From Eledone cirrhosa (Eukaryota), in NCBI GenBank assembly GCA_964016885.1, contig OZ024742.1:223510001-223574000 (forward strand): 64,000 bases of DNA, in the 5' to 3' direction. Each line of letters opens with the position of its first letter. The stretch's first letter is position 1. Positions 3,454 through 49,745 of the stretch are shown here, piece after piece. Position numbers and translations under genes: made by a program. The notes under the pieces were generated by a model. The model saw nothing but the letters and a program-made list of their open reading frames with translations. It was not told the DNA's origin and did no database searches.

Positions 3454-3926
3454 TAGATTATGAGGTTAACTGAACAGAGATGTGTGAACCACATTATGGT
3501 CTATTGTTTGTGAAGCAGATAAAAAGAAGCAATCAACGACGTGTATAAATGGTGCCAGCTGGAGCATTATATATTATAAAAAGATCGGAGGCCATATTCA
3601 GTTGATTCAAGTTTATTTAAAACTCTGTTATACGTATTTCACTGAGGACTATCAGTTATAATAGCCTGAACTCTTCAGACAGCAAAAATTATAAAAACAA
3701 TGAAAGTTCCTTAAAAAACCTTTATGTTTATATTAAGAAAAGAAAATCTTTTTCAAGGAAGTTATTGGATTTTTCCAAACTTAAAAAGGTTTTTTTTAGG
3801 AACTTTTATTGTTTTTATAGGTTTTTTTGCCATCTGAGGAGCTCAGGCTATCATAACTGATAGTCCCCAGTGAAATATGTCTAACAGTGTTTTGAATAAA
3901 CCTGAACCAACTGAATCTTTTAATAA
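3452..3926 (-). mobile_element. TA-inserted foldback element with hammerhead ribozymes (Penelope-like, non-autonomous)
   Basis: Inverted arms at ~3597-3723 and ~3785-3916, each with a hammerhead core. Flanked by (TA)n and (CA)n. Confidence 0.75.
3625..3682 (-). ncRNA. Type I hammerhead ribozyme
   Basis: Minus strand reads CTGT-CTGAAGA-stem II-GAAA-TACGTA-TA-ACAG. Stem I is CTGT/ACAG and stem III is palindromic. A degenerate + copy lies at ~3829-3887. Confidence 0.7.
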
Positions 3927-3991: not shown

Positions 3992-3994
<3 letters not shown>

Positions 3995-4120
3995 TTTATC
4001 CTGGGTTCAATTGGGGGTAACCACAATAAGTAAGGTACTCAATACATAGCAGAGTATAAATATTTAATATAGAAATGGCTTCTACAGGACTAGAACTGTT
4101 TCATTTGAGAGAAATCATCA
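3992..4120 (-). mobile_element. Short TA-flanked element with a 5'-truncated hammerhead core and TTGAGTAC tail motif
   Basis: Minus strand TGATGA-TTT-CTCTC-AAAT-GAAAC abuts (TA)n. GTACTCAA at ~4036. Confidence 0.5.
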
Positions 4121-7414: not shown

Positions 7415-8262
7415 CACCACCACCACCACCACAACTACAATCACCACCACTACCACCACAACAACAACAACCACCACCACCACCACTACCACCACCACCA
7501 CCACCACCACAACTACAATCACCACCACTACCACCACAACAACAACAACCACCACCACCACCACTACCACCACCACCACCACCACCACAACTACAATCAC
7601 CACCACTACCACCACAACAACCACCACCACCACCACCACCATCGCCACCACCACAACTACCACCACTACCACCACAACAACAACAACCACCACCACCACA
7701 ACTACCATCACCACAACAATCACTACCACCACTACTACCACCATCACCACCACTACCACCACAACAACAACCACCACCACCACAACTGCCATCACCACAA
7801 CAATCACTACCACCACTACTACCACCATCACCACCACAACAACCACCACCACCACCACAACCACCACCACCACTACCACCACCACAACAATCACTACCAC
7901 CATCACCACCACCACCACATCAACCACCACCACCACCACCACCACCACCACCACCACAACTACCACCACCACAACAATCACTACCACCACTACTACCACC
8001 ACCACCACCACAACCACCACCACCACCACCACCACCACCACAACCACCACCACCACCACCACCACCACCACCACCACCACTACCATCACCACAACAATCA
8101 CTACCACCACTACTACCACCATCACCACCACCACCACAACCACAACCACCACCACCACCACAACAACGACCACCACCACCACCACCACCACCACCACCAC
8201 CACTACCACCACCACCACCACCATCACCACCACCACAACCACCACCACCACCACCACCACCA
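7415..8262. repeat. ~850-bp compound (CAC/CAA/TAC)n trinucleotide array
   Basis: Read directly from the sequence. Produces spurious poly-T, poly-P, poly-H and poly-V ORFs. Confidence 0.95.
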
Positions 8263-13078: not shown

Positions 13079-13225
13079 ATATGAACTCCTATAATGGAAA
13101 AAATGGGAATCATCATGCATGGGATGCCCATTTTGTTTTTATTATGGTGGTGTGGGTTTCATATGCCCTGTTCCTAGACTATTTTCTGTAGTCAAAATAT
13201 GGTGAAAGCTTATAATTCTATTTTC

Positions 13226-13425
13226 NNNNNNNNNNNNNNNNNNNNNNNNNNNNNNNNNNNNNNNNNNNNNNNNNNNNNNNNNNNNNNNNNNNNNNNNNNN
13301 NNNNNNNNNNNNNNNNNNNNNNNNNNNNNNNNNNNNNNNNNNNNNNNNNNNNNNNNNNNNNNNNNNNNNNNNNNNNNNNNNNNNNNNNNNNNNNNNNNNN
13401 NNNNNNNNNNNNNNNNNNNNNNNNN
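13226..13425. other. Assembly gap (200 N)
   Basis: Run of N. Confidence 1.
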
Positions 13426-16800: not shown

Positions 16801-17700
16801 GTGCTCTGAAAGTACTGTAGCTAGAGTCAGAACTGGTTGGAAAAAGTTCAGAGAGCTTATACCACTATTAGCTGCTAAAGGGTTCTCCCTAAAAATGAAA
16901 GGCAGGTTGTACGATGCCTGCATACGAACAGCAATGTTGCATGGTAGTGAGACCTGGGCATTGTGTGCAGAGGATATACGCAGACTAGAGAGGAACGAAG
17001 CTTGCATGCTCCGCTGGATGTGTAACAGTAATATACGTGAACGGCAAAGCATAAACGAACTAAGGAAAAAATTAGAGATAAGAGGGATCAGATGTTGTTT
17101 ACTCGAGAGAAGGCTGCGTTGGTATGGACACGTGATGCGCATGAAAGTCGATAGCTGTATAACAAAGTGCAGGGCAATAAAGATAGACGGTAGCCACGGA
17201 ATAGGCAGACCTAGAAAAACATGGGATGAGCTGATAAACTCCGACCTCACACACTTACACCTCTCCAAGACAATGTCACTGGACCGAGACCTTTGGCGGT
17301 ACTCAGTAACAGAGAAGACCCGCCTTGCCAGTAGGCATCTCTAACAAAATACACCCCCGTCCCGCCACCACCCCCACCCCATCCACACCACCCCGTTCTA
17401 TGTAAAGTTATGTTGGTGCCGCGCCATCCAGGCCGAAACAAATGAGATCGTGTAGGTGTCACGACAAAAAAACATACAGTCCACGCTGTAATGTGGCCGT
17501 GTAGGCAACACGGTAAAAACCTCCCAAACCCACACTGTAAATGTGGTTGGTGTTAGGAAGGGCATCCAACTGTAGAAAACCTGCCAGACAGTCCTATGCG
17601 AGCAAGACAATCACTCTTGCCTCAAGTGGGACTACCCCCGTCCAAACCCATGCAAGCGTGGAACACGGACGTTAAACGTTGATGATGATGATGATGATGA
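13880..17700 (+). mobile_element. Near full-length RTE-clade LINE with (GAT)n tail
   Basis: 5' UTR (start uncertain), APE-RT ORF, 3' UTR, and GATGATGAT tail at ~17680-17700. Confidence 0.93.
14161..17344 (+). pseudogene. RTE ORF (APE + RT with inserted PHD finger), disrupted
   Basis: Motifs NVGTL, IQETRW, YAPQ, GDLNGH, TSQHR, NYRGIKL, FVDLEKAFD, HQGSVLSP, YADD, RLRWYGHV. Frameshift at ~14785; stops at 15725 and 16055. Confidence 0.92.
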
Positions 17701-18292: not shown

Positions 18293-18984
18293 TAATATTC
18301 GAAAAACTCAGATTACGTTTATTGTATTCAGCCATGTAGAGCGAAATTTTCTTTTTTATTTGAATTTGGCAAAGCCGGCCATTTATCGCTCGTATACAGG
18401 AAACTGACTGGCCAGTCTGCTGATATGCAAATCTGGCTGATCAGTGGATCTGCTAATATGCAGATCTGACTGATCACCAGTCTGCTAATATGCAAATCAG
18501 GCCGATCAGTCACTGTGTATTTTTGAAAATAGCATATATTTTCACTAACTCTGACAGTTTGGCAGGGGAACAGTGTGCTGTACTGATGAAGGGTGATACC
18601 CAGAAACATTAGTGTCTGCAGTTCTGTTCGCATGCCAAACAAGAGCAAGAATGAAGGGTTCAGTCTACTGACATGACTATAAAATTGAGGCTTTTTTGCA
18701 TAATTGCAAACGAATCGAATGTTATTATTAATATTCGAAAAACTCAGATTACATTTATATATCTCTATATATATATATACACATACACACTCACATATAG
18801 CCCCCCCCCCCTCCCCCCAAATGTATACACAGTTCAACAGCATTCTAATCAGTGTGTATACATTTCTTTGGGACGCTCTGCATATATATATAGAGATACA
18901 GAGACACAGACATATATACAAACACACGCATACAAATATATTTAAACACACACATATATATATATATAAACATGCACACATATA

Positions 18985-23065: not shown

Positions 23066-23747
23066 CTTCGGAGTTAAGAATAATGTAAATAATTTAGTTG
23101 AACGAAAATGACAGAGGTTATTAAAATCATAAAAGTAATAATAATTAAATATATACATACACGCATCTATATACACGTGTACATACACGAAAGATTGGAA
23201 ATCTAAAGATGAACCACAAATATTATAAACACCATGCATATTTCTACAAGTACATAGTGCCTGTTGAGGTATTCATCCACTTTTATAATTTTTCTCCTTA
23301 TGTAGAGAACAAAACGTTGAATAATGCTGCTAATTTTAGTGGCAATATCAACATGTTTATAATAAACAGCTATTATCTGCGACCTGATTTTGCGTGTGTG
23401 TCATTTTAACGGCTTGACCGCATGCGTTGGGCAGGAAGCGAAATATTTACTTACTGTAGGGCGAGCAACCTTATAGTGTGGAAATAAGCTGTCTGAAGAT
23501 TCATTTCTTTCCATTGGAAATTCTTTGGATTGCCAATCTTTTGGAATGATGAAACCGTCGGTAACAGCAATAGAACAGGTGATTATTTAAATCGTTGATT
23601 TATTTAGAGAATCGTTTGATAACCGCTTGCTCCGCTATTTTTTATATTGTTCTGGTATCTCGAATTAGTACCATTGAACCACAAATATTATAAACACCTT
23701 GCATATTTCTACAAGTACATAGTACATCCACTTTTATATATATATAT

Positions 23748-25023: not shown

Positions 25024-25800
25024 CTAGCAGAAAACCACCCGGTGGGCGGTTTTCTGCTAGCAAATCTAGTGTACATACTGATATTGTTGAGATTTGGATG
25101 AGAAATGTTTTCGGCACCACATGTTCAGCGTCTCTCGGTTTGTCTTTTATGCATGTATAAATATATATGTTATCTATACGGTGAAATCTTTGAAATAAAT
25201 ATATGTTAAAACGAAAAAGGAGAAAAAGAGATTAGTGACGGAAATATAAACGTTATGATACATAAACGTTATGATATAACGATGGAAATATATAAACGTT
25301 TACGATAAAACGATGGAAATAGAAACGTTTATATATAATGATAAGCCGAAACACTCGTAAGCCGAAACTCTCGTAAGTCGAAACACTCGTAAAACGAAAC
25401 GTATAAATAAAGATTAATGTAAGGAATTTGAAAAGCATGGAGATTTGAAACCATGTCTATTTGTTTCCTTGGCGTTTTTTACAGACGGACAGACAGACAA
25501 ACAAACAGAGAAATGCCCATTATATATTATAAGTAGACTTGGCATGGTGTCAAGTCAGAACCGCCTCGAACTGGTTACTTCTGGCTTGTGCAAGGTGTCT
25601 CTATAGCAATCAGCGATTCCCTCGGCCTCAGTGACCAAAGTCAGTGGAGAGGGGAAGGTAATGTTTCTATAGCGACAGTGTTTCTCTTGGTAGTACCAAA
25701 GTGGAGAAAGGAAGGGGAAGGTAATATTTCTGTAGCACCTACATTTGAGTTTTAGGGAAGGACAGACAGACAGACAAACAGAGAAATGCCCATATATTTC

Positions 25801-25863
<63 letters not shown>

Positions 25864-25889
25864 CACACACAGAAATGTATATATATTTC

Positions 25890-25926
<37 letters not shown>

Positions 25927-26743
25927 TACACACACAGAAATGTATATATATTTCTGTGTGTATATATATATATTTCTGTGTGTGTATATATATATATATT
26001 ACACACACAGAAATGTATATATATTTCTGTGTGTGTGTATATATATATTACACACAGAAATGTATATATATTTCTGTGTGTATATATATATATTTCTGTG
26101 TGTGTATATATATATATATTACACACACAGAAATGTATATATATTTCTTAGAACAAAATTATTATTAATGTTTTGCTGTTCATAACAATTGGAATTGAAA
26201 AATTACTTTTGAAATTATTAGTTATTTTACTAATGCTTAGATATGTAAAATGAAGCAATGTTTCTAATAATTGTTTCTACTTTTGGCACAAGGCCAGCAA
26301 TTATCCAGTACATTACTGGTACTTTATTTTATCGACCCCGTGAGGATGAAAGGCAAAGTTAACTTCGGCGGTATTTGAACTCAGACCGTAAAGGGACGTA
26401 ACTCCATGTTATGAAGCATGGTGTCCGACTCTCTACAGATTCTGCCAATCCACCGCCCTAATGTATGTACGTAATGAGGGAGTAAGAGGGGAGAGAAAGA
26501 AAGGCAGAGGTGAAGTGACGAAGTGACTCTCTCCTCCTCATCCTCCTCCATCTCCCCATTCATCACAGCGATAGAGGGGAGGAATGTTAGTGTGTTACAA
26601 AGAGAAAGAGTGAGAGTGAGAGAAACAGACAGACTAAAAGAGAGGGATAGATAGAGAGAGAGAGGGATAGCAACCACGCGCGCACGTGTTTCCACTGTCG
26701 GACAGACAGACAGAGAAATTGCTGGTTATATATTATAAGGAGA
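25024..26743 (-). mobile_element. Non-autonomous Helitron unit carrying a captured SINE and a hairpin minisatellite
   Basis: 5' TCTCCTTATAAT. 3' hairpin ending in CTAG. SINE at ~26265-26460. Confidence 0.8.
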
Positions 26744-27340
26744 CTAGCAGAAAACCACCCGGTGGGCGGTTTTCTGCTAGCAAATCTAGTGTATATACTG
26801 ATATTGTTGAGATTTGGATGAGAAATGTTTTCGGCACCACATGTTCACCGTCTCTCGGTGTGTCTTTTATGCATGTAAAAATATATATGTTATCTATACG
26901 GTGAAATCTTTGAAATAAATATGTTAAAACGAAAAAGGAGAAAAAGAGATTAGTGACGGAAATATAAACGTTATGATACATAAACGTTATGATATAACGA
27001 TGGAAATATATCTTCAAATGGTCCTTGGCATGGTGTCAAGTCAGAACTGGTTACTTCTGGCTTGTGCAAGGTGTCTCTACAGCAACCAGCGATTCCCTCG
27101 GCCTCAGTGAGCAAAGTCAGTGGAGAGGGGAAGGTAATGTTTCTATAGCAACAGTGTTTCTCTTGGTAGTACCAAAGTGGAGAAAGGAAGGGGAAGGTAA
27201 TATTTCTGTAGCACCTACATTTGAGTTTTAGGGAAGGACAGACAGACAGACAGACAGACAAACAGAGAAATGCCCATATATTTCTGTGTGTATATATATA
27301 TATATATATTACACACACAGAAATGTATATATATTTCTGC

Positions 27341-27382
<42 letters not shown>

Positions 27383-28071
27383 CACACACAGAAATGTATA
27401 TATATTTCTGTGTGTATATATATATATTTCTGTGTGTGTATATATATATATATTACACACACAGAAATGTATATATATTTCTTAGAACAAAATTATTATT
27501 AATATTTTGCTGTTCATAACAATTGGAATTGAAAAATTACTTTTGAAATTATTAGTTATTTTACTAATGCTTAGATATGTAAAAATGAAGCAATGTTTCT
27601 AATAATTGTTTCTACTTTTGGCATAAGGCCAGCAATTATCCAGTACATTACTGGTACTTTATTTTATCGACCCCGTGAGGATGAAAGGCAAAGTTAACCT
27701 CGGCGGTATTTGAACTCAGACCGTAAAGGGACATAACTCCATGCTATGAAGCATGGTGTCCGACTCTCTACAGATTCTGCCAATCCACCGCCCTAATGTC
27801 TGTACGTAATGAGGGAGTGAGAGGGGAGAGAAAGAAAGGCAGAGGGGAAGTGACGAAGTGACTCTCTCCTCATCCTCCTCCCCATTCGTCACAGCGATAG
27901 AGGGGAGGAATGTTAGTGTGTTACAAAGAGAAAGAGTGAGAGTGAGAGAAACAGACAGACTAAAAGAGAGGGATAGCTGGAGAGAGAGAGAGAGATAGCA
28001 ACCACGCGCGCACGTGTTTCCACTGTCGGACAGACAGACAGAGAAATTGCTGGTTATATATTATAAGGAGA
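26744..28071 (-). mobile_element. Non-autonomous Helitron unit (tandem duplicate of 25024-26743 with indels)
   Basis: A|TCTCCTTATAAT start and CTAG end joined directly to the TC of the next unit. SINE at ~27597-27795. Confidence 0.8.
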
Positions 28072-28854: not shown

Positions 28855-28856
<2 letters not shown>

Positions 28857-29873
28857 GAGAACAAGTTATCGTTATAGGTAATCCAGTCAGAGGTTGTGAG
28901 TACTCTGTATTGTAGATAGTTCTAACGTACGCCGTTGTTTGACTCAACAATAGGTTTCCATAGTTAGGTAGCGAGTTCGCGAGAATTCCTATGCAGGTTA
29001 TTATTGGAGTAATAATAGTGAAAGATTGAAGAATAACATGGTCGGCTGTACAAAAAGGGTCTTATTTCTAGTATTAACAATTGTTTCATTGATCAGGTGA
29101 GTCTAAAGGCCGCTAATCACTTGAAGTTGCGTCACTTGACCTTAAATACAGTGTTTACCTCTAATCAAATCATCGGAATACTGGAGGTTTTACATATGGC
29201 ATTGGTATTTATAGATACCACGGAGAATCAAAACAGTAACATCAATAATAAAAGATAAAAAAAAAGTTAGAATGAAGATGATAAAGATGTAAAAAATAAG
29301 TAAAACGATAAGTATAGAATACGATTGCTGATAATAGTGGTGGTGGTGATTAAAGTTACAGTGGTGAGTAAGTGTATGTGTAAAGACATGATGAGAGTAG
29401 AGATAATAATACTAACATGAAATGAAACATTAAATACATACATACGTAGTTGTCAAATCTCAGAGGGTTAGAGTAGAAAATAAAAAATAGTAACAAATAA
29501 CAGATAAAAGATAAAAGATAAAAAATAAAAAATAAATTAAAAATTTAGTGAGCGGGGAAGGGATACAGAACAGGAGACAGGGAGTGGGGGTGGCGATACG
29601 AGGATGAGACATAAGGGGTAGGGCCAAGGACGGGGAAGGAATAGATAGGTAGATAGAGAATAAAAATTGAGAGGGAGAGATACCAATGCCATATGTAAAA
29701 CCTCCAGTATTCCGATGATTTGATCAGAGGTAAACACTGTATTTAAGGTCAATTGACGCAACTTAGAGTGATTAGCAGCCTTTAAACTCACCTGATCAAT
29801 GAAACAATTGTAAATACTAGAAATAAAACCCTTTTTGTACAGCCGACCATGTTATTCTTCAATCTTTCACTAT
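28855..29873 (-). mobile_element. TA-inserted foldback element with two long-stem-II hammerheads
   Basis: Inverted arms at ~29015-29208 and ~29680-29873. GAGTACTC in the tail at ~28898. Confidence 0.8.
29705..29820 (+). ncRNA. Type I hammerhead variant (CCGAUGA core, ~80-nt stem II domain)
   Basis: AGTATT-CCGATGA-TTTGATCAG...CTGATCAAT-GAAA-CAATTG-TA-AATACT. Mirror copy at 29068-29183 on the minus strand. Confidence 0.65.
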
Positions 29874-29890
29874 ATATATATATATATATA

Positions 29891-29998
29891 ACGAAGGAAG
29901 AATGGTAAGGAACCAGGTGGACCATAATGCACCAGAGTACTCAACACTTTGGGTAGTAGAGTGGGGAATAGGAAAATGTTCAAAACCCTTTTTTCCTA
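29891..29998 (-). mobile_element. Minimal TA-flanked element: tail plus ~10-bp inverted end (second copy at 36678-36779)
   Basis: GAGTACTCAA motif and ATAGGAAAA...TTTTCCTAT. Confidence 0.65.
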
Positions 29999-30018
29999 TA
30001 TATATATATATATATATA

Positions 30019-30845
30019 TATTGTTATACTTGGGGAGGGTCATATTGTTGTAATAATATTGCCAGCAATGATAATGGAACACACTGTTTGGTTGGTTTTT
30101 GCTTCTGTATCTTTTATATCTCCATAGTTAATTCATTTGGCCATCAATGTTTATCATTTACTGACCAACGGTCAAAAATTTATATAAATATCTAAACATA
30201 GAAATGACCCAGCAAATCAGAGAAGCAAGCGAAATAGAGCTTAGAAAGCCAAAGCTAAACAGAAAAAATGAATGGAATAACAACAACACCCAAACAAACA
30301 ATACTGACTTAAGAGAAATATAAATAAATAAATAAATAAATAAATATATACACAAGCACAATAACAACAAACACATATAAACACACACTAATAAACTAAG
30401 ATAGGATACAATAACCAAAACACAGTCACCCAAACGTGAACACACGCACCAAACACTATACACACACGCAAACGCAGAGATGAAGACAAAAATAAATAAA
30501 TAAATAAATAAACAGATAAAATAAAAATGGCGTAGACATACAATACAACAGGAGGAAACATAATAGTACCACTGATGATGTTGCAGATGTGCAACGAAAG
30601 AACTTTGGTAGACTATATATATGTATCTATATCTGTATTTTTGACCGTTGGTCAGTCAATGATAAACATTGATGGCCAAATGAATTAACTATGGAGATAT
30701 AAAAGATACAGAAGCGAAAACCAACCAAACAGTGAGTGTGTTCCATTATTATTTCTGGCAATATTATTACAACAATATGACCCTCCCCAAGTATAACAAT
30801 ATTTGTTTCAACACACAATTTCATATAAAAAATCTTGCAAAACAA
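30019..30845 (+). mobile_element. TA-inserted foldback element with a hammerhead at 30567-30610
   Basis: Arms at ~30019-30178 and ~30637-30802. TACCA-CTGATGA-TGTTGCA GATG TGCAAC-GAAA-GAACTT-TGGTA. Confidence 0.8.
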
Positions 30846-31120
30846 ATATCATCATCATCATCATCATTTTCCGTCTGCTTTTCCCTGCTTGCAAGGGTGG
30901 GACGAGAACTGATTCTGGCTTGATTTCTACAGCTGGATGCCCTTCCTAACACCAACCTCATTTACAGTGAGTGCTGGGTGCTTTTTTGCCGTGGCACCTC
31001 CATGACCACTTTGCAATGGAATGATAGGGACCCCAGTCCTATCATCTCATTTCTACAGCTGAGTAAACTGGAGCGATGTGAAATAAAGTGTCTTGCTCAA
31101 GGAAACAACACATCACCCGG

Positions 31121-31187
<67 letters not shown>

Positions 31188-31250
31188 TATATATATATGA
31201 TATATATATATATGATATATATATATGATATATATATATATATATATATA

Positions 31251-31800
31251 ATATAAATGAAGTATTTCCATAGGAAAGGTAAAGGAAAAGAGAGTGCTCT
31301 ATGTAGGCTACAGAGCTTTTTAGTTATGTAATAAATAACATAAGATAATTATTTCATTTACCAGTGGTTTCTTGAAGACAGATACTTATGTCTGTCTTTA
31401 TTCACCAGAAGAAATATTTATTTATGAAATAGTAATATGGATTTGAAAACAGAGTTTAGGATAAATGAAAGTGAGGCTGAAATAAGATAACGGGCAAAAA
31501 TTGAGGGGAAAAAAATTAGTAAATAAATATCCAAATACATACTATTACGTATATGCATGAGTTTGAGTAGGTGTATGTTTATGTATTTGGATATTTATTT
31601 ATTAATTTTTTCCCTCTCAAATTTTGCCCGTTATTTTATTTCAGCCTCACTTTCATTTATCCTAAACTCTGTTTTCAAATCCATATTACTATTTCATAAA
31701 TAAATATTTCTTCTGATGAATGAAGACAGACATAACTATCTGTCTTCAAGAAACCACTGGTAAATGAAATAATTATCTTATGTTGTTTATTACATAACTA
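31251..31800 (-). mobile_element. TA-inserted foldback element; hammerhead at 31706-31770 (+), mutated mirror at 31351-31415
   Basis: Arms at ~31321-31543 and ~31575-31800. ATTTCTT-CTGATGA-ATGAAGACAGA..TCTGTCTTCAA-GAAA-CCACTGG-TA-AATGAAAT. GAGTGCTC in the tail. Confidence 0.82.
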
Positions 31801-31808
31801 TATATATA

Positions 31809-32186
31809 CAAAATGGATATTTAATTTGTTGGTATATCAACAAATATATATGTTTATAACTGATTCGAAGCACTCAACAAGTTTTCTGGAGTATAATATC
31901 AATGATATTAAATAAATGGAAACTATATTTATAAAACCATATTTATTCTATTATATATATTTCAAGGGTACCAAAACTTTGGTACGCTCTCATCAGATAA
32001 AATACAAAGTTTGTATCCAGGAAAATCTTGAACCGTTAAGATCTTCTTCCTGGATATGTTAATATTTATAAAACAAACTTTGTATTTTATCTGATGAGAG
32101 CGTACTAAAGTTTTGGTACCCTTGAAATATATATAATAGAATAAATATGGTTTTATAAATATAGTTTCCATTTATTTAATATCATA
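31809..32186 (-). mobile_element. TA-inserted foldback element with two hammerheads (31944-32004 minus, 32083-32143 plus)
   Basis: TATTTTAT-CTGATGA-GAGCGTAC..GTACCCTT-GAAA-TATATA-TA-ATAGAATA. GCACTCAA in the tail. Confidence 0.85.
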
Positions 32187-32211
32187 TATATACATATATA
32201 TATATATATAT

Positions 32212-32403
32212 AGAAGTGATTACACAACAGTTAGTTCACCATAACATGGTTATATGGAACCATGTCCATTATGAGCTGAGGAACCGCTAAGGTAAAACAA
32301 TTGTTCTCGGTATGGTGAACTAACTGTAACCACTTCTACCTAACTCGTCCCATGGACTGAGTGCTCTACCACTACGGATATTACCTTCCAGTGTTCTACC
32401 ACT
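32212..32403 (+). mobile_element. Small TA-inserted foldback with a mutated hammerhead (32273-32308)
   Basis: GAAGTG..CAGTTAGTTCACCATA pairs with TATGGTGAACTAACTG..CACTTC. GAG-CTGAGGA-ACC GCTAA GGT-aAAA-CAATTG-TT-CTC. GAGTGCTC tail. Confidence 0.7.
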
Positions 32404-32958: not shown

Positions 32959-33875
32959 AAGGATTAGAATACTGGAGCGTGTTGGAGTCAAACACCCTCT
33001 TCGTATTATAGAAATGACAGTAAAAGGTATAGCTCAATGCAGTTAAACAGAGCCAAAAAATTAAGAGAGTAAAACAAAGAATCCTTTAATACATCAAAAG
33101 TTTTTATTAGCCGACAATGTTTCGTCCTATTAAGGACTCATCAGGGCAATCAAAACAACAAGAGGTAATATCGGCAGATACAAGCCAGAAACTCTGAAGA
33201 ATATGGAGTGTACATACACTAATGTCTTACAAAAATATATGATAATAAAAATGAAAATAAAGATAAAAATAATAAAAATATATAATAAGAATAACTAAGG
33301 ATGTAGATAACATTAAGAACCATATTACAAATATAGTCCAAAGCAACTAACCTAAATCTCAACAAATTTGGTTATATAGAGCAGGAATTATATATAACAC
33401 AATATAATACATTATAATAATAATATACTTCTACCAACATTAAAATTCCAAATTAAAAATCAAAAGGTACAATATATACATGTATATATGTGCGCACACA
33501 CACACACACACACACACATATATAACAACACACACATCTATGTTCCACTACACAAAATTAAGCCCTATTAGAAGTTTGAATATTAAAAATAAGCATGATA
33601 AGAGTGAAAATAATACTAATACATCTACCCAATATACATGAGGCAATAATATGATATAATTACAAGAAACACATATAACAAATAATAAACAACAAAATTA
33701 TATAATTCAATATAATATAATAAAATAGATAATCCCCGGTTAATTTACAGAAACAATATAGATGTCACAATAAAATACAATGATAAAACGTTAACATTTA
33801 CCATAAACAATATATACAAATTGATTCATACTGGGTTACAGAATAAATGAGGAAAAATAAATTATATAATACTCA
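32959..33875 (-). mobile_element. Penelope-like pseudo-LTR fragment between TA tracts
   Basis: Contains a canonical minimal hammerhead followed by AATAAA on the minus strand. Confidence 0.65.
33110..33147 (-). ncRNA. Minimal type I hammerhead ribozyme
   Basis: GCC-CTGATGA-GTCCT TAAT AGGAC-GAAA-C ATT GTC-GGC. All core bases are canonical, with a GUC cleavage triplet. Confidence 0.88.
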
Positions 33876-33876
33876 A

Positions 33877-33924
<48 letters not shown>

Positions 33925-33926
<2 letters not shown>

Positions 33927-34543
33927 GAATTGTTATTACTTTATCTTTTAGTTTTTTCTTTCATTTTATTTTTTTATGGTTATATTTTGTATTCTTGTAT
34001 TTCTTTATTCCTTTATTCCCTTTGTACTTACTTCAAAGACTGTGACAGCAGACTTCCGGCAGACCAGGTGCTACGCAAGAATGAATTTGGTATAAGACCA
34101 GCGTAAAATGCCGCCTTGACCAACAAATGGCAGTAACAGCTGCTGAGTTCTAGGTCGTTACCCATTGAGATTTGACCGAATACAATTTAACAGGATGAAT
34201 ACGGTGATGACACATTCCTTTAACAGAGTGTGTGTGTAACAGCATAAAATAAGAAATCGGGATAAATATATAAATATCCAACCACTCTTAGACGCGAGTC
34301 TACATGGAAACACATATCTGAGGAGCTTCCGATTCCAGAGTCAGGATCGATCATTAAGCGATCGTTCCTCGAGCTGATCGACAGTGAAACATATGTAATA
34401 TGTAATTAAATATGTATATGATGCAACACTGATTCTTTGTTCCCTTATATATTAATACTATTGATATTCTGCTCCCTAAGAGCATTGAGTGCTCAACTAG
34501 GCATACCGCATACGGCCGCAATTAATTTGCTCCTTTAATACCT
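33925..34543 (+). mobile_element. TA-flanked element with a hammerhead at 34312-34403 and TTGAGTGCTCAA tail motif
   Basis: ACATAT-CTGAGGA-extended stem II-GAAA-CATATG-TA-ATATGT. Confidence 0.8.
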
Positions 34544-34756
34544 ATATATATATATATATATTCCTGGTCGTTCTTTTTCGGCTGCACGGGTGATTTTAGG
34601 CATGATCTCTGTGTGTTGGTATTTTAACGATAGTTATAGCTCTGGTTTATCCAAACTATTGAGCCCTCTGCCACACATGTCGGATATTGTTTATCGTGAT
34701 TTCGTGGGCCGATATTCCGATTCTCGATCATTCTAATATATATATATATATATATA

Positions 34757-34910
34757 AAATTAGAAAGACGTATATTAATATTGTCTAAGGTCCTGAAACC
34801 TTTGGTAATGGAGTAGTTATATATTGTGTTGTTCACTTTCTAATTAAATAGCTCTGTTCTATACATAGAGCACTCTTTTTCCTTTGCTTTTTCTTCGGAA
34901 TTACCTAAAA
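34757..34910 (+). mobile_element. Tail-only relative of the 31251 element with a short inverted end
   Basis: AGCTCTGT..TACATAGAGCACTCT..TTTCCTTT matches the reverse complement of 31280-31320. AATTAGAAAG/CTTTCTAATT inverted pair. Confidence 0.6.
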
Positions 34911-34949
34911 TACACACACACATACACACAGATACATATATATATATAT

Positions 34950-36640: not shown

Positions 36641-36775
36641 TATATGTATATATATATATATGTATATATATATATAACGAAGGAAGTGTGGTAAGGAACC
36701 AGGTGGACCATAACGCACCAGAGTACTCAATACTTAGGGTAGTAGAGTGGGTAATAGGAAAAGAGTCACTCTTTT

Positions 36776-36812
<37 letters not shown>

Positions 36813-37744: not shown

Positions 37745-38170
37745 TTCATCATCATCACTGTTTTACGTACATTTTTCCATGCTAGCATGGGTTAGACAAG
37801 TTGTCCTGTTGTGGGCAATGCTAGGTCAGGTGACCATGTCTTGCTCTTACAGAACTGATTTTGGCTTGGGTTCTACAGCTGGATGCCCTTCCTAACGCCA
37901 ACCTCATTTATAGTGAGTACTGGATGCCTTTTGTCATGACACCTACACAACCACTTTACAGTGTGGACTGGGTGCTTTTTGTCACGACACCTATATGACC
38001 ACTTCACAGTGTGGACTGGGTACTTTTTGTCGTGACACCTATATGACCACTTCACAGTGTGGACTGGGTACTTTTTGTCATGACACCTACACAACCACTT
38101 TATAGTGTGGACTGGGTGCTTTTTGACGTGACACCTACACAACCACTTTACAGTTTGGTTGGGACGCTTT
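37745..38170 (-). mobile_element. RTE 3' UTR with 42-bp tandem repeats
   Basis: ACCTAYAYRACCACTTYAYAGTGTGGACTGGG repeated about 5 times; (CAT)n end. Confidence 0.8.
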
Positions 38171-38575: not shown

Positions 38576-40665
38576 AATAATAATAATAATGAAATTATTG
38601 TGTAAAGTGCTCAGGTGCACTACAACTCGTCAAAGGTGCATGTATAGTACATAGAATAATATACAAATGTCAGGGAAGTGAACAGTGTATGAGTCATGAT
38701 ATACATGTGTGTATGTGAATGGAGGGGGAATATTAGGTGTAGTGTTGGCGAATCTCGGGAAGCATGGAGGTTTTAAAGGATGCAGTGTCTCGACAGCTAA
38801 CAACTGATGCAGGTATTTTGTTCCATGCTTCAGCAACTCTGAGCGTGAAAAAATGTTTCCGAAAGTCATGGGAACTGTGCTGTTTTCTGACTTTGTGGAC
38901 ATGTCCACGTGTGTTAGACACATGGAAATCAAAAAGGTACTCAAGGTTGTTGTTGGCAAGATCGTTAACAATTTTTGGGGCATTTACCAAGTCAGTTGCC
39001 AGGCGTCAGAGCTTCAGTGTATCCATGCCCAGGGAAGCAAGGCGTTCAGAGTATGGTAGATGCCTGATGGAGGGTATTCGCTTGGTTGCACATCTCTGAA
39101 CAGTTGCCAGGCGGTAAATATTCTGAGCAAGATAGGGGTTCCAGATTGGTGATGCAAATTCTAAGTGTGGCCGCACCATAGTCATGTACAGCCTTAAATA
39201 GATAGCTGGAGAGCGGCTGACAAACGTCTTGCTGAGTGATGCTAAGACACCCTCAGCCCTCTTGAACATTTTAGAGACGTGCTTCGCCCAATGCAAATCG
39301 CTGCTGACCGCAATGCCCAGGTCACGTTCACAAGAAGACTTCTTGATATTAGTATGTGGACGCTGGGTTTTTACTCCTAAAATGCATGGTCGTGCTCTTG
39401 TCCACAGCTAGCTTGAGTTGCCAGTCTGAGATCCATTGTTGCATTGTGTCCAGGTCAGACTGCAAGCAAGATCTATAGTGTTCAGGATCTGTCCTTTTTA
39501 TCTCAAGGTACAGCTTGATGTCATCTGCATACTTTAGTACTGTGGCATTCTTTAAGTTGGCATCTATGTCATTAATATATGCCACAAACAAAAGGGGGCC
39601 AAGAACAGATCCCTGTGGTACACCAGATGACATCTCATATGGTGAGGAATGCTATCCCAGAACCATGACTACCTCTCTTTGACTGAGAGTGAAGGACTTC
39701 AACCAGTTAAAAAGATCATCCTTCACACTCATTGCAGAGAGTTTTGCCATAAGCCTTTTGTGTGGCACAGAATTGAAAGCTTTCGCAAAGTCAAGGTAAA
39801 CAACATCCACCTATGAGCCGCCATCAGTGATCCGGGTGATGTCCTCAAGAAACTCGATAAGTTGATCACAGCAGCTGGAGTTGGGGATAAATCCAAATTG
39901 CGAGGGCCGGATAAGACTGTGAGAGCTCCAGAAGTTCCAAAGTGTTTCTCTGACACAGGATTCCATCAGTTTGGCGATGCAACTAGTAAGACTGACTGGA
40001 CGATAGTTCACAGGTGATGTGCGGTCACCCTTTTTGAACAGAGGAATGACACTGGCAGTTTTCCATTGTTCTGGAGTAGCACCGTTGTTCAGACAGAATT
40101 GGAAGAAGCGTGATAGCTGGTGCAGAACGAAGTACCCACCACGTTTAAGAAGCAGGTACATAACACCATCAAGACCAGGAGAGGCATGGTTGCGTTTATT
40201 TTTTAGGTGACGTCACAGCATTGCAGGTGTAAATTCCATGGTTGTAATAGAGTCCGGTGTCATAGGTGGTGGAGACGGTACACTCTGGTCTTCAATAGTG
40301 AAAATGCCTGCATAGCATTCAGCAATGAGCTCTGCACATTCCTTGGGGTCGTCAGTAACCTGGCTTGTGTGGGGATTGTGAAGAGGACCAACTGGAGAGT
40401 GAGGCCTCTGCTTTGAGTGAACATACTTCCAGAACACCTTACTGTCAGGGCTGGTTGCTATGTGCTGCTCAAATTGAAGCACTGCCTTTTTTGTCACCTG
40501 TTTGAGTTGGTTGGACGATTTATTTTGCCTCTTCCTATTGATGTCTGATTTGTGCAGTTTGTACTCACGTTCAGCATTGCGACGTTCTTTTCTGGCAAGA
40601 CGGACTGCTGCAGTCTCCCAAATTGCACTTTTGGGATGTTTTTCCGCTTACGTGGCACCGATGCT
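38576..40665 (-). mobile_element. 5'-truncated CR1 LINE (RT region, disrupted)
   Basis: NYRPVSLTS, GVPQGSVLGPLLF, KYADD, VRPHLEFA, TRGH and FFTLRVAEAWNK motifs; (ATT)n tail. Confidence 0.92.
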
Positions 40666-41469
40666 GGATAACATCTAACTGGATAACATTTGACTGGATA
40701 ACATCAGACCCAATCCAGCAGCTTTAACTGGCCATAATATATATGGCCTTCAGGGATGGAACATACAATAGCTTCTTTAAAACTAACAAGAAACAATAGT
40801 GGTTTTCCAGGATGCAGCTTCAAAGGAGGTACGTTAAACCTACAGGGTGTAAGCTGAAAGATTTCTACACTTTTTTTTTTCATCTAATGCCCTTTTAGAG
40901 AATATATTTCAGTAATGACTCTCATTATGTTCCAAGTTTGATCCTGGCATCTTGGACAAGTATCATTTATCATGGCCTCAGGTTGACTCACTCACATCTT
41001 GTAAGTGAAATTGCTGGACAAATTTTATGGGCAAAACCAATCAGCAGGAGACCCAGGGGTAAACCTTGAGTAATGACGATGATGACAAAGACGAGCAAGA
41101 TGGTTGGATAACATCTATGAGCTTGGCTGGTCTTGCTTGGGGATCCATCAGGATCAGTTGGAGACGGTTGCTTCTGGCAGGACCCACTGAAGGGAGAGTT
41201 TGAGGACTCTTCCTCCACGACCCTCTCAGGAATAAGTGGGCAAAGAAGAAGACTTAACATATTATTCTTACATAAAATTATGTTGGAAGATTTTAACTTA
41301 AATAGGAACCTCTTGAAATGGGTGCTTTTATTTCATAGAACCAGAGCTGGTTTTGGCTAGGTTGGTATTTGAATGATTAAAGAGTGTGGAGATCAAACCT
41401 CCCAAATTGAACAGATACACAGCTAAAATAGAAAAAAAAAAAGAAAAAGAAAAGATAAAATAGAAAAAT

Positions 41470-42625
41470 ATATAAGTATATACACGTGCATACATATATG
41501 TATACAGACGTACAGTAGTATGTATATATATATACATACATGCACACATATATATATGTACGTATGGATTCACCGAACATTTATTATAATGCTCGGTGTG
41601 TTTGTAAACAAACATCCCGTATTAAGCCGTAGTGTCTAGCAACCATCGTTGCTCATTTGTTCAACACTGACAAAGGAACACTGTACTAGTTTCAAGCTTA
41701 TTAGCTATCGTCAGCAACGTATACCTTCTTGCCAGATTGTTGAACGTATATACTTACCTTATGCATATTAACGGCTGAGTAGCCCAATTTGCATATCGAG
41801 TGGGTTAATCGGCTGGGTGCACCGAAAACGATAAACGGAAAAAATGAAACGAAATTTCATTTCCCACTCTTAGTACAGCTGTTACTTAAATATAAGTATG
41901 TACACGTACATACATATATGTATACAGACGTACAGTAGTATGTATATATATATATACATACATGCCGATGGTTGCTAGACACTACGGCTTAATATGGGAT
42001 GTTTGTTTACAAACACACCGAGCATTATAATAAATGTTCGGTGAATCCATAAGTACACATATATATGTGTGCATGTATGTATATATATATACATACTACT
42101 GTACATCTGTATACATATATGTATGTACGTGTACATACTTATATTTAAGTAACAGCCGTACTAAGAGTGAGAAATGAAATTTCGTTTCATTTTTTCCGTT
42201 TATCGTTTTCGGTGCACCCGGCCGATTAACCCACTCGATATGCAAATTGGGCTACTCAGCCGTTAATATGCATAAGGTAAGTATATACGTTCAACAATCT
42301 GGCAGGAAGGTATACGTTGCTGACGATAGCTAATAAGCTTGAAACTAGTACAGCGTTCCTTTGTCAGTGTTGAACAAACGAGCAACGATGGTTGCTAGAC
42401 ACTACAGCTTAATACGGGATGTTTGTTTACAAACACACCGAGCATTATAATAAATGTTTGGTGAATCCATACGTACATATATATATGTGTGCATGTATGC
42501 ATATATATATATACATACTACTGTACATCTGTATACATATATGTATGTACGTGTACATACTTATATTTAAGTAACAGCCGTACTAAGAGTGGGAAATGAA
42601 ATTTCGTTTAATTTTTTCCGTTTAG
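41470..42625 (+). mobile_element. Inverted plus tandem array of a 420-bp hammerhead-containing unit (retrozyme/pLTR-like)
   Basis: GATGGTTGCTAGAC at 41967 and 42387. 41470-41964 is the reverse complement of the unit. Confidence 0.82.
42314..42356 (+). ncRNA. Type I hammerhead ribozyme (mirror copy at 41678-41720 on minus)
   Basis: ACGTTG-CTGACGA-TAGCT AATA AGCTT-GAAA-CTAG-TA-CAGCGT, with a possible distal stem I extension. Confidence 0.82.
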
Positions 42626-42862
42626 AAAAATATAGTTTTGAGAAAATAAACTTGCTCGACCTGTTTGAAAACAAAGCTTCATGTATTATCAAGAAAAGGT
42701 GGATTAATGAGAACATTTTTATTTTCTGTATGTGGAAATAGAAAATATGCATGGCTGTGTGATTAAGGGATTCTGGGTTCAGTCTTGTTGTGAAAGTTGA
42801 GCAAGTGACTTCTGCTAAACATACATTCACTCACACACACACATATGTACACACATATATAT

Positions 42863-42911
<49 letters not shown>

Positions 42912-42915
<4 letters not shown>

Positions 42916-45403
42916 AGTCTGTGGCTGGAGCAGGCCTGTAGGCAGGAGGAGAGTAACATGGTGGTGGAACAGTAAGGTGGAGGGGTCAATTAAGGCCAAA
43001 AAGCAGGCTTGGAAAGTATGGCGGGATGGGGGAAGTAGAGAAGACTATCAAGTGGCCAGGAGGGAAGCTAGGAGACAAGTGTACTTCGCAAGAATGGAAG
43101 CAGAGGAAAGAAAGTTCAAGCATGTTCTACAACGTGAGGACCAAAAACGTGAGGTGTTCAGGATTGCTAGGCAATGTGTCAAGGAAAACAGTGATATTGT
43201 CGGGGAGAAGTGTGTACTTAACGATGACGGCGTACTTGCCATCACCGACGCCGATAAGAAGGTAGCTTGGAAGTGTCACTATGAAAGGCTACTAAATGAG
43301 GAGAATAAATGGGAGAAAGACAGTCTCCCCCACATCGACCCAATAGAGGGACCAGCAGTGTTAGTCGAGGGTAGTATAATAAGTAAGGCAATCAAAGATA
43401 TGAAGACAGGCAAGGCGGCTGGGCCTTCGGAAATAGTTGCCGAGATGCTGAAGGCATCTGGTACGGTGGGACACACCATGGTCACCCGGATAGTCAACCA
43501 AGTCATACAGAATGGGGTTGTTCCGAAGGACTTGCGTAGCAGCATTATCGTTAACTGTTATAAGGGTAAAGGAGATGCCCTAGATAGGAGTAACTATAGA
43601 GGCATTAAATTAATCGACCAGGTCATGAAGGTCACGGAAAAAGTAATAGCGCAACTAATCAGAGAGCGAATTGATCTAGATGAAATGCAGTTCGGGTTTG
43701 TGTCAGGAAAAAGTACCACAGACGCTCTTTTCATTGTACGACAACTACAGGAGAAGTACCTAGCTAAAAGTAAACCCCTATACTTAGCTTTCGTCGACTT
43801 AGAGAAGGCCTTCGACAGAGTCCCCCGTTCCATTATCTGGTGGGCTCTTAGAAAACTAGGTGTTGATGAATGGCTTGTGAGAGCCATAGAAGCCATGTAT
43901 AAAGAAACAGTCAGCAAGGTTAGAATTAACAACGAATATAGTGAAGAGTTTAGTGTAAAAGTTGGTGTTCATCAGGGCTCTGTTCTTAGCCCCCTACTAT
44001 TTATTATTGCCCTCCAGGCTATAACAGTGGAGTTCAAGACCGGCTGCCCATGGGAACTCCTATACGCAGATGATCTAACGCTCATAGCTGAATCAATGGC
44101 CGAGCTAGAGAAGAAATTCCAAACATGGAAGCACGGAACTAGAATCAAAAGGCCTTAAAATTAACCTGGCTAAGACTAAAGTTCTAGTTTGTAAGAAAGA
44201 AAATAAGGCGGCGGTCCCCTCCGGGAAGTGGCCATGCGCAGTGTGTAGGAAAGGCGTAGGTAGAAATTCCATTTTGTGTCCCAAATGCAAAGTTTGGGTG
44301 CATAAAAGATGTAGTGGGATCACAGGTAAGCTAACTAAGAACATAGATTTTACATGTGGCCGGTGTTCTGGGGCAATAAGTAGCAGCAAGTGCCTACAAA
44401 ATACTAGCTCTTTCAACTGCGCAGAGGGTTCTATAGAAATAGTGGACAGCTTCCGTTACCTGGGTGACAAAATCAGCAGTGGGGGAGGGTGCTCTGAAAG
44501 TACAGTAGCTAGAGTCAGAACTGGGTGGAAAAAGTTCAGAGAGCTTATACCACTATTAGCCGCTAAAGGGTTCTCCCTAAAAATGAAAGGCAGGCTGTAC
44601 GATGCCTGCATACGAACAGCAATGTTGCATGGCAGTGAGACCTGGGCATTGTATGCAGAGGATATACGCAGACTAGAGAGAAACGAAGCTTGCATGCTCC
44701 GCTGGATGTGTAATAGTAATATACGTGAACGACAAAGCATAAACGAACTAAGGAAAAAATTAGAAATAAGAGGGATCAGATGTTGTTTACTAGAGAGAAG
44801 GCTACGTTGGTATGGTCACGTGATGCGCATGAAGGACGATAGCTGTATAACAAAGTGCAGGGCAATAAAGATAGACGGTAGCCACGGAATAGGCAGACCC
44901 AGAAAAACCTGGGACGAGCTGATAAACTCCGACCTCACACACTTACACCTCACCAAGACAATGTCACTGGACCGAGATCTTTGGCGGTACTCAGTAATAG
45001 AGAAGACCCGCCTTACCTAAATACAAAGTAAAACCTACTACAGTCAGTAGGCATCTCTAACAAAATACACCACCCCCACCCCATCCACACCGCCCCCTTC
45101 AATGTAAAGTTATGTCGGTGCCACACCATCCAGGCCGAAACAAATGAGATCGTGTAGGTGTCACGACAAAAAAACACACAGTTCACGCTGTAATGTGGCC
45201 GTGTAGGCAACACGGTAAAAACCTCCCAGACCCACACTGTAAATGTGGTTGGTGTTAGGAAGGGCATCGAACTGTAGAAAACCTGCCAGACAGTCCTATG
45301 CGAGCAAGACAATCACTCTTGCCTCAAGTGGGAAAACCCCCGTCCAAACCCATGCAAGCGTGGAACACGGACGTTAAACGTTGATGATGATGATGATGAT
45401 GAT
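42912..45403 (+). mobile_element. 5'-truncated RTE LINE (RT+PHD) with a frameshift at ~44140, TA-flanked
   Basis: Very similar to 15226-17700. ORFs 42845-44158 and 44241-45020. Confidence 0.93.
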
Positions 45404-45737
45404 ATATAAGAAATTAAAAGATGGTTAAAAAAGTTCCATATATTTTATTATGCGCATTTCCTGGGACGATAATTGCGTTCTCATCAGATAAAATAAGGTA
45501 ACATGATATGATGCCTAAAAACACTTGTGAACAAGAAAGTGTCCAGTCAACATATGTTGAACGCAATTATCGTCCCAGGATGATATTTGTTTTTGAAATA
45601 CGCATAATAAAATATATGGAACTTTTTTAACCAACTTTTAATTTCTTCTATATATATACTCCAATTCTATCAACTGTTGAGTGCTACTTATCTGATATAT
45701 GCATAGTTTTATTGTTCTACAATATAACTCACCTCCT

Positions 45738-48680: not shown

Positions 48681-48689
48681 TATATATAT

Positions 48690-49318
48690 GTGGAAGTTCT
48701 ATTTAAATTGTTGGGATACAACAAGCAAATATTTTTATAACTGATATAAAGCACTCAACAAATAATTGGAGTAAAAATACGATATTAACAAATGGAAACT
48801 ATATTTATAAAACCATATTTATTTCATTATACATATTTCAAGGACACCAAGTTAAATTATGGTGTTCTTTCATCAGATAAAATATAATGTAGAGCAGTTT
48901 TATAAATAAATATTGACATACCCTTAAAGAATGCGATCATTACTGTTGGAAGCTATCCAGGAGCTTCCAACAGTAATGGTCGTAGTCTTTAAGGGCATCA
49001 TCATCATCATCATCATTTTACGTCCACTTTTCCCTCATCTCATTTCTTCAGCTGAGGAAACTGGAGCAATGTGAAATAAAGTGTCTTGCTCAAGGACACA
49101 ACACATCACCCGGTCTGAGAATTGAACTCACAACCTTTCAGTTGCAAGGTCAATGCTCTAACCACTAAGCCATGTATGTCAATATTTATTTATAAAACTG
49201 CTCTATATTATATTTTATCTGATGAAAGCACACCATAATTTAACTTGGTGTCCTTGAAATATGTATAATGAAATAAATATGGTTTTATAAATATAGTTTC
49301 CATTTGTTAATATCGTAT
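48690..49318 (-). mobile_element. Near-complete palindromic hammerhead element (family of 31809), interrupted by a SINE fragment
   Basis: Hammerheads at 48820-48884 (-) and 49211-49275 (+). Central hairpin at 48921-48995. GCACTCAAC tail. Confidence 0.83.
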
Positions 49319-49328: not shown

Positions 49329-49739
49329 AGTTTTGCGAGGTTTTTGATATGAAATCGTGTGTCGAAACAAATATTGTTATACTTGGGGAGGGTCATATTT
49401 GTGTAATAATATTGCCAGAATTAATAACAGAACACACTCACTGTTTGGTTGGTTTTCGCTTATGGCGTAGGCATACAATACAACGGGAGGAAACATAATA
49501 ACACCACTGACGATGTTGCAGATGTGCAACGAAAGAACTTTGTTAGACTATATATATGTGTTTGTGTCTATATTGTATCTGTATTTTTGACCGTTGGTCA
49601 GTCAATGGTAACATTGAGGACCGAATAAATTAAATTAACCGATATAAAAGACACAGAAGCAAAATCCAACCAAACAGTGAGTGTGTTTTGTTATTAATTC
49701 TGGCAATATTATTACACAAATATGACCCTCCCCAAGTAT

Positions 49740-49745
<6 letters not shown>
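49329..49745 (-). mobile_element. Foldback element of the 30019 family; hammerhead core at 49502-49545 (+)
   Basis: High similarity to 30530-30845. CTGACGA-TGTTGCAGATGTGCAAC-GAAA. Confidence 0.8.

What the first reader, a model, noticed from the sequence alone, without database searches (positions are those of the whole stretch)
28855..32403. Shared architecture: unique tail, arm, spacer, then an inverted arm that stops before the tail
Seen: elements at 3452, 28855, 29891/36678, 30019/49329, 31251, 31809/48690, 32212, 34757 and 45404 are partial foldbacks. One arm continues into a 40-160 bp unique tail; the mirror arm ends at (TA)n. Arm length ranges from ~10 bp (29891) to ~220 bp (31251). 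The two 30019-family copies share the same outer endpoints but differ in inner breakpoints. Inference: two priming events from fixed RNA positions on opposite target strands (twin-priming-like), joined at variable points. These would be retro-insertions that mimic MITEs and would also yield dsRNA.
Basis: partly seen in the sequence, partly recalled or inferred. Interest (0 to 1): 0.75.

Follow-up and report, generated by a model that had tools for sequence, protein, structure and literature searches.

The report
Two-ended Penelope retroelement insertion stubs
These lopsided DNA hairpins lodged in TA repeats are real and are most likely the short, ribozyme-bearing end pieces of Penelope-like jumping genes in their known mirror-image-plus-tail layout, and their fixed outer ends and variable inner joins suggest that the enzyme starts copying twice, once from each cut DNA strand, which can be tested.

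Summary
The layout is real: 8 of the 12 listed elements are clear foldbacks, two are short but credible, and two have arms at chance level. All clear ones carry a 45-163 nt tail on one side only. Nine of 12 hold a hammerhead or hammerhead-like motif, and 10 of 12 a small bulged stem just inside the tail; published Hydra-clade consensus sequences show both. This is the known insertion form of Penelope-like elements (inverted 5'-truncated copy, one-sided tail, (TA)n target), not MITEs or an assembly artefact. No coding region was found, so membership rests on non-coding marks. In 6 of 8 joints the two pieces do not overlap, which favours two priming events over the published self-priming idea, though later deletions could mimic this. 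dsRNA is untested. The scan noted the same system, stem included, elsewhere in this genome and in other animals. Architecture known; mechanistic detail moderately interesting.

The parts
28855..29017 (-). Tail (163 nt) of the 28855 element; RNA-sense 3' end, abuts (TA)n
   Evidence: covered by thousands of records from other copies
28942..29010 (-). Bulged stem ACUC/GAGU with a 2-nt 3' bulge, 7 nt past the tailless end
   Evidence: the pair 29003/28951 is U-A here and G-C in about 99% of other copies
29018..29208 (-). Arm of the tailed piece, with a hammerhead-like motif (core 29176, U4C, 82-nt stem II, predicted cut after 29076)
29209..29679 (-).
   Evidence: multi-copy depth continues to the end of the stretch laid (29470); no Pfam match in the one frame scanned
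29680..29870 (+). Inverted tailless piece, ends in (TA)n with 3 nt shared with the target
   Evidence: fixed end in other copies
29891..29996 (-). Minimal stub: very short mirror arm, bulged stem 29962-29939, 80-nt tail
   Evidence: 93% identical over 86 nt to 36677-36777
30022..30843 (+). 30019-family copy: inverted piece 30022-30179, hammerhead core 30572 (cut after 30605), arm 30637-30798, 45-nt tail; no bulged stem
30848..31125 (-). SINE-type repeat with an (ATC)n end, next to the tail; not part of the foldback
   Evidence: multi-copy in window; class label recalled
31251..31798 (-). Foldback with 219-nt arms, hammerhead-like motif in each arm (intact core at 31713, +), bulged stem 31316-31296, 72-nt tail
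31809..32183 (-). Foldback with a hammerhead in each arm (cores 31996 -, 32091 +), near-symmetric joint, stem 31892-31872, 95-nt tail
32213..32402 (+). Short foldback: about 30-nt mirror arm, hammerhead-like motif with GAAA changed to AAAA near 32277, stem 32343-32362 (1-nt bulge), 66-nt tail
3454..3921 (-). Foldback, hammerhead core 3678, degenerate stem 3565-3531, 142-nt tail
34757..34912 (+). Stub related to the 31251 family (74% over 112 nt), 10-bp mirror arm, stem 34851-34871
36677..36777 (-). Second copy of the 29891 family, hairpin with a 3-nt loop, stem 36748-36725
45408..45737 (+). Foldback whose tailless piece is the longer and alone keeps the hammerhead core (45487, -); stem 45658-45682; 90-nt tail
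48690..49315 (-). Young foldback (arms 98.6% alike), hammerheads in both arms, 7-nt loop at the joint, SINE inserted at about 48996-49175, 90-nt tail
49330..49743 (-). Second 30019-family copy: 282-nt tailless piece, 135-nt tailed piece, same outer ends
32960..33884 (-).
33925..34542 (+).
34562..34735 (+).
41461..42634 (.).

Best explanation
These elements are likely heavily 5'-truncated insertions of Penelope-like retroelements, most of them probably of the (TA)n-targeting Hydra type, each likely made of two cDNA pieces that end at two fixed points of the element and are joined head to head at a variable inner point. Shown: one-sided tails, a fixed tailless end, variable inner joints, hammerhead-shaped motifs, a steep fall in copy depth away from the 3' end. 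Inferred: the element's GIY-YIG endonuclease nicks both strands of a (TA)n tract; one 3' end primes reverse transcription at the outer start site (tailed piece), the other anneals by 2-5 nt to a UA/AU just before the bulged stem and primes at the inner site (tailless piece); both cDNAs stop early and are joined, often through up to 4 nt of microhomology. Overlapping pieces give a foldback, non-overlapping ones an inversion with no hairpin. Each insertion leaves (TA)n on both sides, so new targets arise and stubs pile up.
For: Layout equals the published PLE form: inverted 5'-truncated copy plus a tail at one end. The tail is the distance between two RT start sites, and both target strands are cut and extended in vitro. 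Strict hammerhead descriptor: 11 hits in the window against a mean of 0.06 (max 1) in 100 shuffles; 6 lie in listed elements. Reads on the 28855 family: 3,983 contigs laid in X1; depth falls from about 1e5 near the tail to about 500 at 29400; loose ends at 29015 read as (TA)n in 45 contigs and 360 and 400 reads of two other samples. Eight opposite-strand joints all lie at different places; 3 of 8 have 4 nt of microhomology (background 0.02 each, P about 4e-4); in 6 of 8 one piece ends inside the tail. In 49329 and 45404 the tailless piece reaches further upstream than the tailed one. Both arms of 28855 share four minority alleles, so they come from one parent lineage. Published Hydra consensus ends show the same long-stem-III hammerhead and bulged stem (by eye).
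Against: No RT or GIY-YIG coding sequence is linked to any stub: 4 reading frames overlapping the listed elements gave no Pfam match, no genome is held and two metagenome scans found nothing. Tails are 45-163 nt, longer than the 30-40 nt in print. Three copies (31809, 48690, 36678) have near-symmetric joints, which the literature reads as self-priming. Seven of the 8 joints rest on one contig each, 5 further joints were not shown, and the tool warns that joints at low likeness can come from other repeats. Later deletions at hairpin centres could also give asymmetric, microhomology-bearing joints. In vitro no strand difference in start site was seen. The 30019 family lacks the bulged stem. Reads tested one family only, and the tail-side end was not tested with its flank.
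Confidence: 0.72

Rival explanations
1. Same elements, but one priming event: the cDNA (or an antisense RNA) snaps back and primes on itself, synthesis stops at the tail boundary where the endonuclease resolves the intermediate, and later deletions at the hairpin centre create the asymmetry.
For: Palindromic or near-symmetric joints at 31809, 48690, 36678 and a 14-bp palindrome at the 45404 joint. Self-priming is the reading in PMC3846280; endonuclease resolution of the tail is the reading in PMC8557442. It explains strict one-sidedness without further rules.
Against: Needs secondary deletions for 49329, 45404 and 6 of 8 read joints. It does not predict the 2-5 nt shared between tailless ends and (TA)n (chance about 0.12 per family). 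Two RT start sites are shown in vitro.
Confidence: 0.18
2. Some families are non-coding parasites (retrozyme-like RNAs) written in by PLE enzymes, not truncated copies of coding elements; the insertion chemistry would be the same.
For: No ORF in stubs up to 1 kb long; the 41461-42634 insertion is a 420-nt tandem hammerhead unit with the same two-ended layout. A 2026 preprint derives animal retrozymes from PLE ends (abstract and two passages).
Against: None of the 12 listed elements shows tandem monomers; 5' truncation alone explains the missing ORF.
Confidence: 0.3
3. True MITEs or foldback DNA transposons that target TA microsatellites.
For: Small size, inverted arms, TA flanks, high copy number.
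Against: One terminus is never part of the inverted repeat; inner structure varies between copies; depth falls steeply from one end; strand-specific hammerhead and stem motifs are kept.
Confidence: 0.02
4. Assembly artefacts (chimeric inverted reads).
For: No read spanning a window copy's own inner joint was examined.
Against: Arms differ by about 1-12% or more; a SINE sits in one arm only; a strand-switch joint is seen in raw reads of two other samples (85 reads each) and the tailless end in hundreds of reads.
Confidence: 0.01

Closest known systems
Inverted-pLTR-plus-tail insertions of endonuclease-bearing Penelope-like elements (Arkhipova et al. 2013, PMC3846280: passages and Discussion read; Craig et al. 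2021, PMC8557442: passages, sections 11 and 15, supplement parts 2, 52-54)
   Same: Inverted 5'-truncated copy head to head, tail on one end only, hammerhead in the terminal repeat, palindromic joints in some copies, TSD hidden in microsatellite (12-bp direct repeat visible at 41461/42623).
   Different: Stubs of 100-1000 nt with no ORF; tails 45-163 nt; many copies have non-overlapping pieces and no hairpin.
Hydra clade of PLEs (PMC8557442), e.g. Hydra-2_Amil, Hydra-1_Ajap, Hydra-2_Ajap, Hydra-1_Obim
   Same: (TA)n target; hammerhead with a 3-4-bp stem III; by eye the same GCUC/GAGC bulged stem in the 3' ends of Hydra-2_Amil and Hydra-2_Ajap and twice near the 5' start of Hydra-1_Ajap.
   Different: The clade is defined by protein motifs that could not be tested. 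Two family-specific motifs of these stubs were absent from the supplement. The paper does not mention the stem ('hairpin' and 'bulge' 0 times in the main text). The 30019 family lacks it.
Poseidon PAc of Anolis, in vitro (Frangieh et al. 2024, PMC11167929: parts 1-2 of 4 read)
   Same: Two internal RT start sites bounding the tail; both target strands cut and extended; AT-rich target; hammerhead upstream of the start sites.
   Different: PAc starts at RNA sites not homologous to the target, whereas tailless ends here share 2-5 nt with (TA)n; PAc's tail lies in the ORF, these tails look non-coding; the parts read do not explain inverted copies.
L1 twin priming and dual priming (as described in Meyer et al. 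2010, PMC2837659: passages)
   Same: Two cDNAs primed from opposite target strands and joined head to head; inversion with internal deletion in non-overlapping copies.
   Different: No poly(A) priming; the second start is fixed; pieces can overlap and form hairpins, which needs strand displacement or a second RNA.

Membership tests
EN+ Penelope-like elements | 3'-anchored copies with variable 5' truncation | tested here: met
   Depth gradient in X1, X9, X10 for the 28855 family; different inner ends in 30019/49329
EN+ Penelope-like elements | Inverted 5'-truncated copy joined head to head | tested here: met
   8 of 12 clear, 2 short, 2 at chance level
EN+ Penelope-like elements | Tail on one end only | tested here: met
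   45-163 nt in 11 of 11 tabulated; longer than the published 30-40 nt
EN+ Penelope-like elements | Hammerhead motif in the terminal repeat | tested here: met
   9 of 12: strict descriptor in 4, relaxed in 1, by eye in 4; absent from the 3 shortest; cleavage untested
EN+ Penelope-like elements | ORF with telomerase-like RT and GIY-YIG endonuclease | tested here: inconclusive
   None in the stubs; no genome or longer copies available
EN+ Penelope-like elements | Variable-length target-site duplication | tested here: inconclusive
   Hidden in (TA)n for the listed elements; 12-bp direct repeat at the unlisted 41461-42634 insertion
Hydra clade | Insertion into (TA)n | tested here: met
   Window flanks; loose ends at 29015
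Hydra clade | Canonical hammerhead | tested here: met
   Stem III of 3-4 bp like supplement file S2, compared by eye; 28855 has a U4C core
Hydra clade | RWK and DKT motifs, CxCX5C linker, endonuclease without CCHH | not testable with these tools
   No coding sequence linked to the stubs
MITE / foldback DNA transposon | Both termini formed by the inverted repeat | tested here: not met
   One terminus is always a unique tail
MITE / foldback DNA transposon | Copies uniform in size and inner structure | tested here: not met
L1-type twin priming | First strand primed on a poly(A) tail, second at a variable internal site | tested here: not met
   No poly(A); second end fixed at 29015
L1-type twin priming | Two inverted pieces joined at a variable point with microhomology | tested here: met
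   8 different joints, 3 of 8 with 4 nt
Non-LTR retrozyme | Tandem monomers, one hammerhead each | tested here: not met
   Not in the 12 listed elements; met only by the unlisted 41461-42634 insertion

The most novel reading that the evidence does not exclude
Hydra-type Penelope reverse transcriptase recognises a small bulged RNA stem (RCUC...NN-GAGY) present twice in its RNA and starts copying 5-11 nt before each copy, once from each nicked strand of a (TA)n target. One rule then yields the tail, the inverted pLTR and the hairpin-free inversions, and replaces self-priming as the origin of inverted PLE ends.
Probability: 0.4. Interest if true: 0.7.

Novelty: new member of a known kind. Interest (0 to 1): 0.42.

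Why it matters
How Penelope-like elements, the closest relatives of telomerase RT, make their inverted ends and tails is still open. These stubs are a natural record that separates two-primer from self-priming models and points to a candidate RT-start signal that can be mutated in vitro. In practice, such stubs would be misfiled as MITEs in repeat libraries, and if transcribed the hairpins would be dsRNA substrates (inference, untested).

Tried and rejected
No whole genome is held, so copies could not be aligned genome-wide. Read evidence covers one family and 616 bases only; the other families are untested with reads. No RNA holder listed; expression and small RNAs untested. Rfam gave mostly microsatellite-driven miRNA matches below their cut-offs and one hammerhead just below its cut-off; 150 of 222 rows were shown. 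Two exact-pattern scans of metagenome contigs for longer copies found nothing. Pfam on 9 reading frames found only RT, PHD and a weak APE-type endonuclease match in two unrelated LINEs. A first relaxed hammerhead script printed nothing through a coding error and was redone. Read ends at 28984 and 29079/29082 were rejected as element ends: they fall on AATT sites in RAD libraries (restriction-site reading inferred). Folding energy gives little support for the bulged stem: z from +0.72 to -2.66, only 2 of 12 below -2. Its descriptor was written after seeing the motif, so the shuffle control (9 near (TA)n against a mean of 0.74, max 3) is biased upward. A sequence look-up of earlier findings found nothing. 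Coding tails were rejected: no frame is conserved between related tails. Paper searches for a two-primer account of inverted PLE ends or for the stem found none; subscription papers and the supplements of the bioRxiv preprint could not be seen and may bear on this.
Full report
Setting. The window is eukaryotic, repeat-rich DNA with LINE reading frames, SINE-like repeats and many microsatellites. It looks cephalopod; that label is recalled and echoed in earlier scan notes, not tested. No whole genome is held. From 28855 to about 36800 it is a string of short elements parted by (TA)n runs.

Observation. Eight of the 12 listed elements have long inverted arms with BLAST E-values of 3e-26 or lower. 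32212 and 36678 have short but credible arms; 29891 and 34757 have 6-10-bp arms at chance level. In all 11 tabulated elements one arm continues into a tail of 45-163 nt and the other stops before it. The 30019 and 49329 copies share both outer ends and differ inside, and the longer piece is the tailed one in the first and the tailless one in the second. The spacer is not a separate part: in 28855 it is family sequence, and in 31809, 48690 and 36678 the arms meet at a loop of 3-7 nt.

What the elements are. A strict type-I hammerhead descriptor found 11 motifs in the window against a mean of 0.06 (max 1) in 100 local shuffles; 6 are in listed elements, 3 in unlisted ones of the same kind, 2 elsewhere. 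A relaxed descriptor added both arms of 28855 (U4C core) and 33925, and inspection by eye added 31251, 45404, 32212 and 49329. So 9 of 12 carry a hammerhead or a damaged one, reading outward toward the element ends; the three shortest have none. Cleavage is untested. PLEs carry hammerheads in their terminal repeats (PMC4209133, parts 1-2 of 4). The layout of an inverted 5'-truncated copy plus a tail at one end is described for PLEs, Naiad and Hydra clades insert into (TA)n, and both occur in Octopus. No RT or GIY-YIG sequence could be tied to these stubs, so membership rests on non-coding marks.

Other copies. Reads and contigs of four runs were laid on 28855-29470 at 80% likeness. X1 gave 3,983 contigs, X5 (another organism) 37, and the raw runs X9 and X10 about 3,000 reads each. 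Depth in X1 falls from about 1e5 over tail and arm to about 3,000 at 29200 and 500 at 29400, the shape expected from 5' truncation (the tool warns that this is no copy number). Loose ends before 29015 read as (TA)n in 45 contigs and in 360 and 400 reads, so the tailless end is fixed. In X9 and X10, 616 and 683 reads run past an end of the stretch while depth at the far end is 1-3, so most copies reach at least 28855; the flank was not included, so that they stop there is inferred. Eight of the 15 joints shown switch strand (5 more were not shown), all at different places. Three of 8 have 4 nt fitting either side; random joints do so at 0.02, giving P of about 4e-4. In 6 of 8 one piece ends inside the tail, so those copies have no hairpin. 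Seven of the 8 rest on one contig; one is seen in 85 raw reads in each of two samples. Its geometry, and that of the 28926/29051 joint whose short side is exactly 29015-29051, fits the head-to-head order.

Further details. Tailless ends share 2-5 nt with the (TA)n flank in 28855, 30019/49329, 31251, 31809, 48690, 32212, 45404 and 29891/36678, but not clearly in 3452 or 34757; chance is about 0.12 per family. The two arms of 28855 share four alleles that are minorities in the family, so they derive from one parent lineage, and at 3 of their 8 differences the mirror arm has the majority allele.

Bulged stem. I noted a shared tail motif before consulting earlier notes. It forms RCUC/GAGY with a short 3' bulge and an inner helix, and is found in 10 of the 12 listed elements (degenerate in 3452, absent from the 30019 family) and 4 unlisted ones. 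It begins 6-11 nt past the tailless end in 8 of 9 measured, 30 nt in 3452. A-U and G-C versions of the outer pair both occur, and one inner pair of 28855 is U-A here and G-C in about 99% of other copies. Folding energies are weak and the descriptor control is circular. Earlier scan notes linked the stem to the Hydra clade and reported two copies per element. I checked this in part: by eye the stem is in the 3' ends of Hydra-2_Amil and Hydra-2_Ajap and twice near the 5' start of Hydra-1_Ajap. That tails end just before a second stem cannot be seen in stubs.

Mechanism. In vitro a PLE protein cuts and extends both target strands and starts at two RNA sites that bound the tail. The simplest reading here is one start per strand, early termination of both cDNAs, and joining at short homology. 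Self-priming, the published reading of palindromic joints, requires the tailless piece to lie within the tailed one; 49329, 45404 and 6 of 8 joints break that rule unless later deletions are invoked, which I cannot exclude. Overlapping arms need strand displacement or a second RNA. Strict one-tail-per-copy needs an ordering rule that is not shown.

Novelty. The architecture is known, and the families appear uncatalogued in the one supplement searched. An explicit two-primer account of inverted PLE ends, and the stem, were not found in my searches. The scan found the same system on other DNA of this genome and in other animals; those are unchecked notes, not support. MITE and artefact readings fail. 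The dsRNA claim is untested.

Noticed in passing
window 41461-42634: Head-to-head insertion of a 420-nt hammerhead-bearing unit (about 1.2 and 1.6 units), one-sided extension of about 56 nt, 12-bp direct repeat at both ends; retrozyme-like with Penelope-type ends.
   Followed up: partly
window 32960-33884, 33925-34542, 34562-34735, 3993-4110: Four more (TA)n-flanked stubs with the bulged stem, two with hammerheads, and no inverted arm.
   Followed up: partly
window 18583-18616 (+), 23493-23563 (+), 23867-23844 (-): Further hammerhead motifs near (TA)n runs; 23493 and 23867 point toward the run between them.
   Followed up: no
window 29176-29076 (-) and 29712-29812 (+): Hammerhead-like motif with a U4C core and an 82-nt stem II in both arms; one contig of another copy shows the same core letters.
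   Followed up: partly
window 14032-17344, 42913-45020, 46083-48698: LINE copies with RT; a PHD finger follows RT in 46083-48698, which is one open frame of 871 codons. RTE label recalled.
   Followed up: no
window 56255-60546 and 39006-40647 (-): A second LINE family with RT and APE-type endonuclease and a glutamine-rich upstream frame.
   Followed up: no
window 48996-49175: SINE inserted into one arm of a young foldback whose arms are 98.6% alike, so the SINE insertion is recent.
   Followed up: partly
window 37899-38158 and 49953-50268: SINE-like repeats with internal 48-nt tandem arrays of 5-7 copies.
   Followed up: no
window 25774-26546 and 27238-27881: Local duplication about 1,335 nt apart holding palindromic microsatellite-rich units.
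   Followed up: no
window 7415-8262: An 850-nt (CAC)n-type trinucleotide array; a run of 200 N lies near 13225-13425.
   Followed up: no
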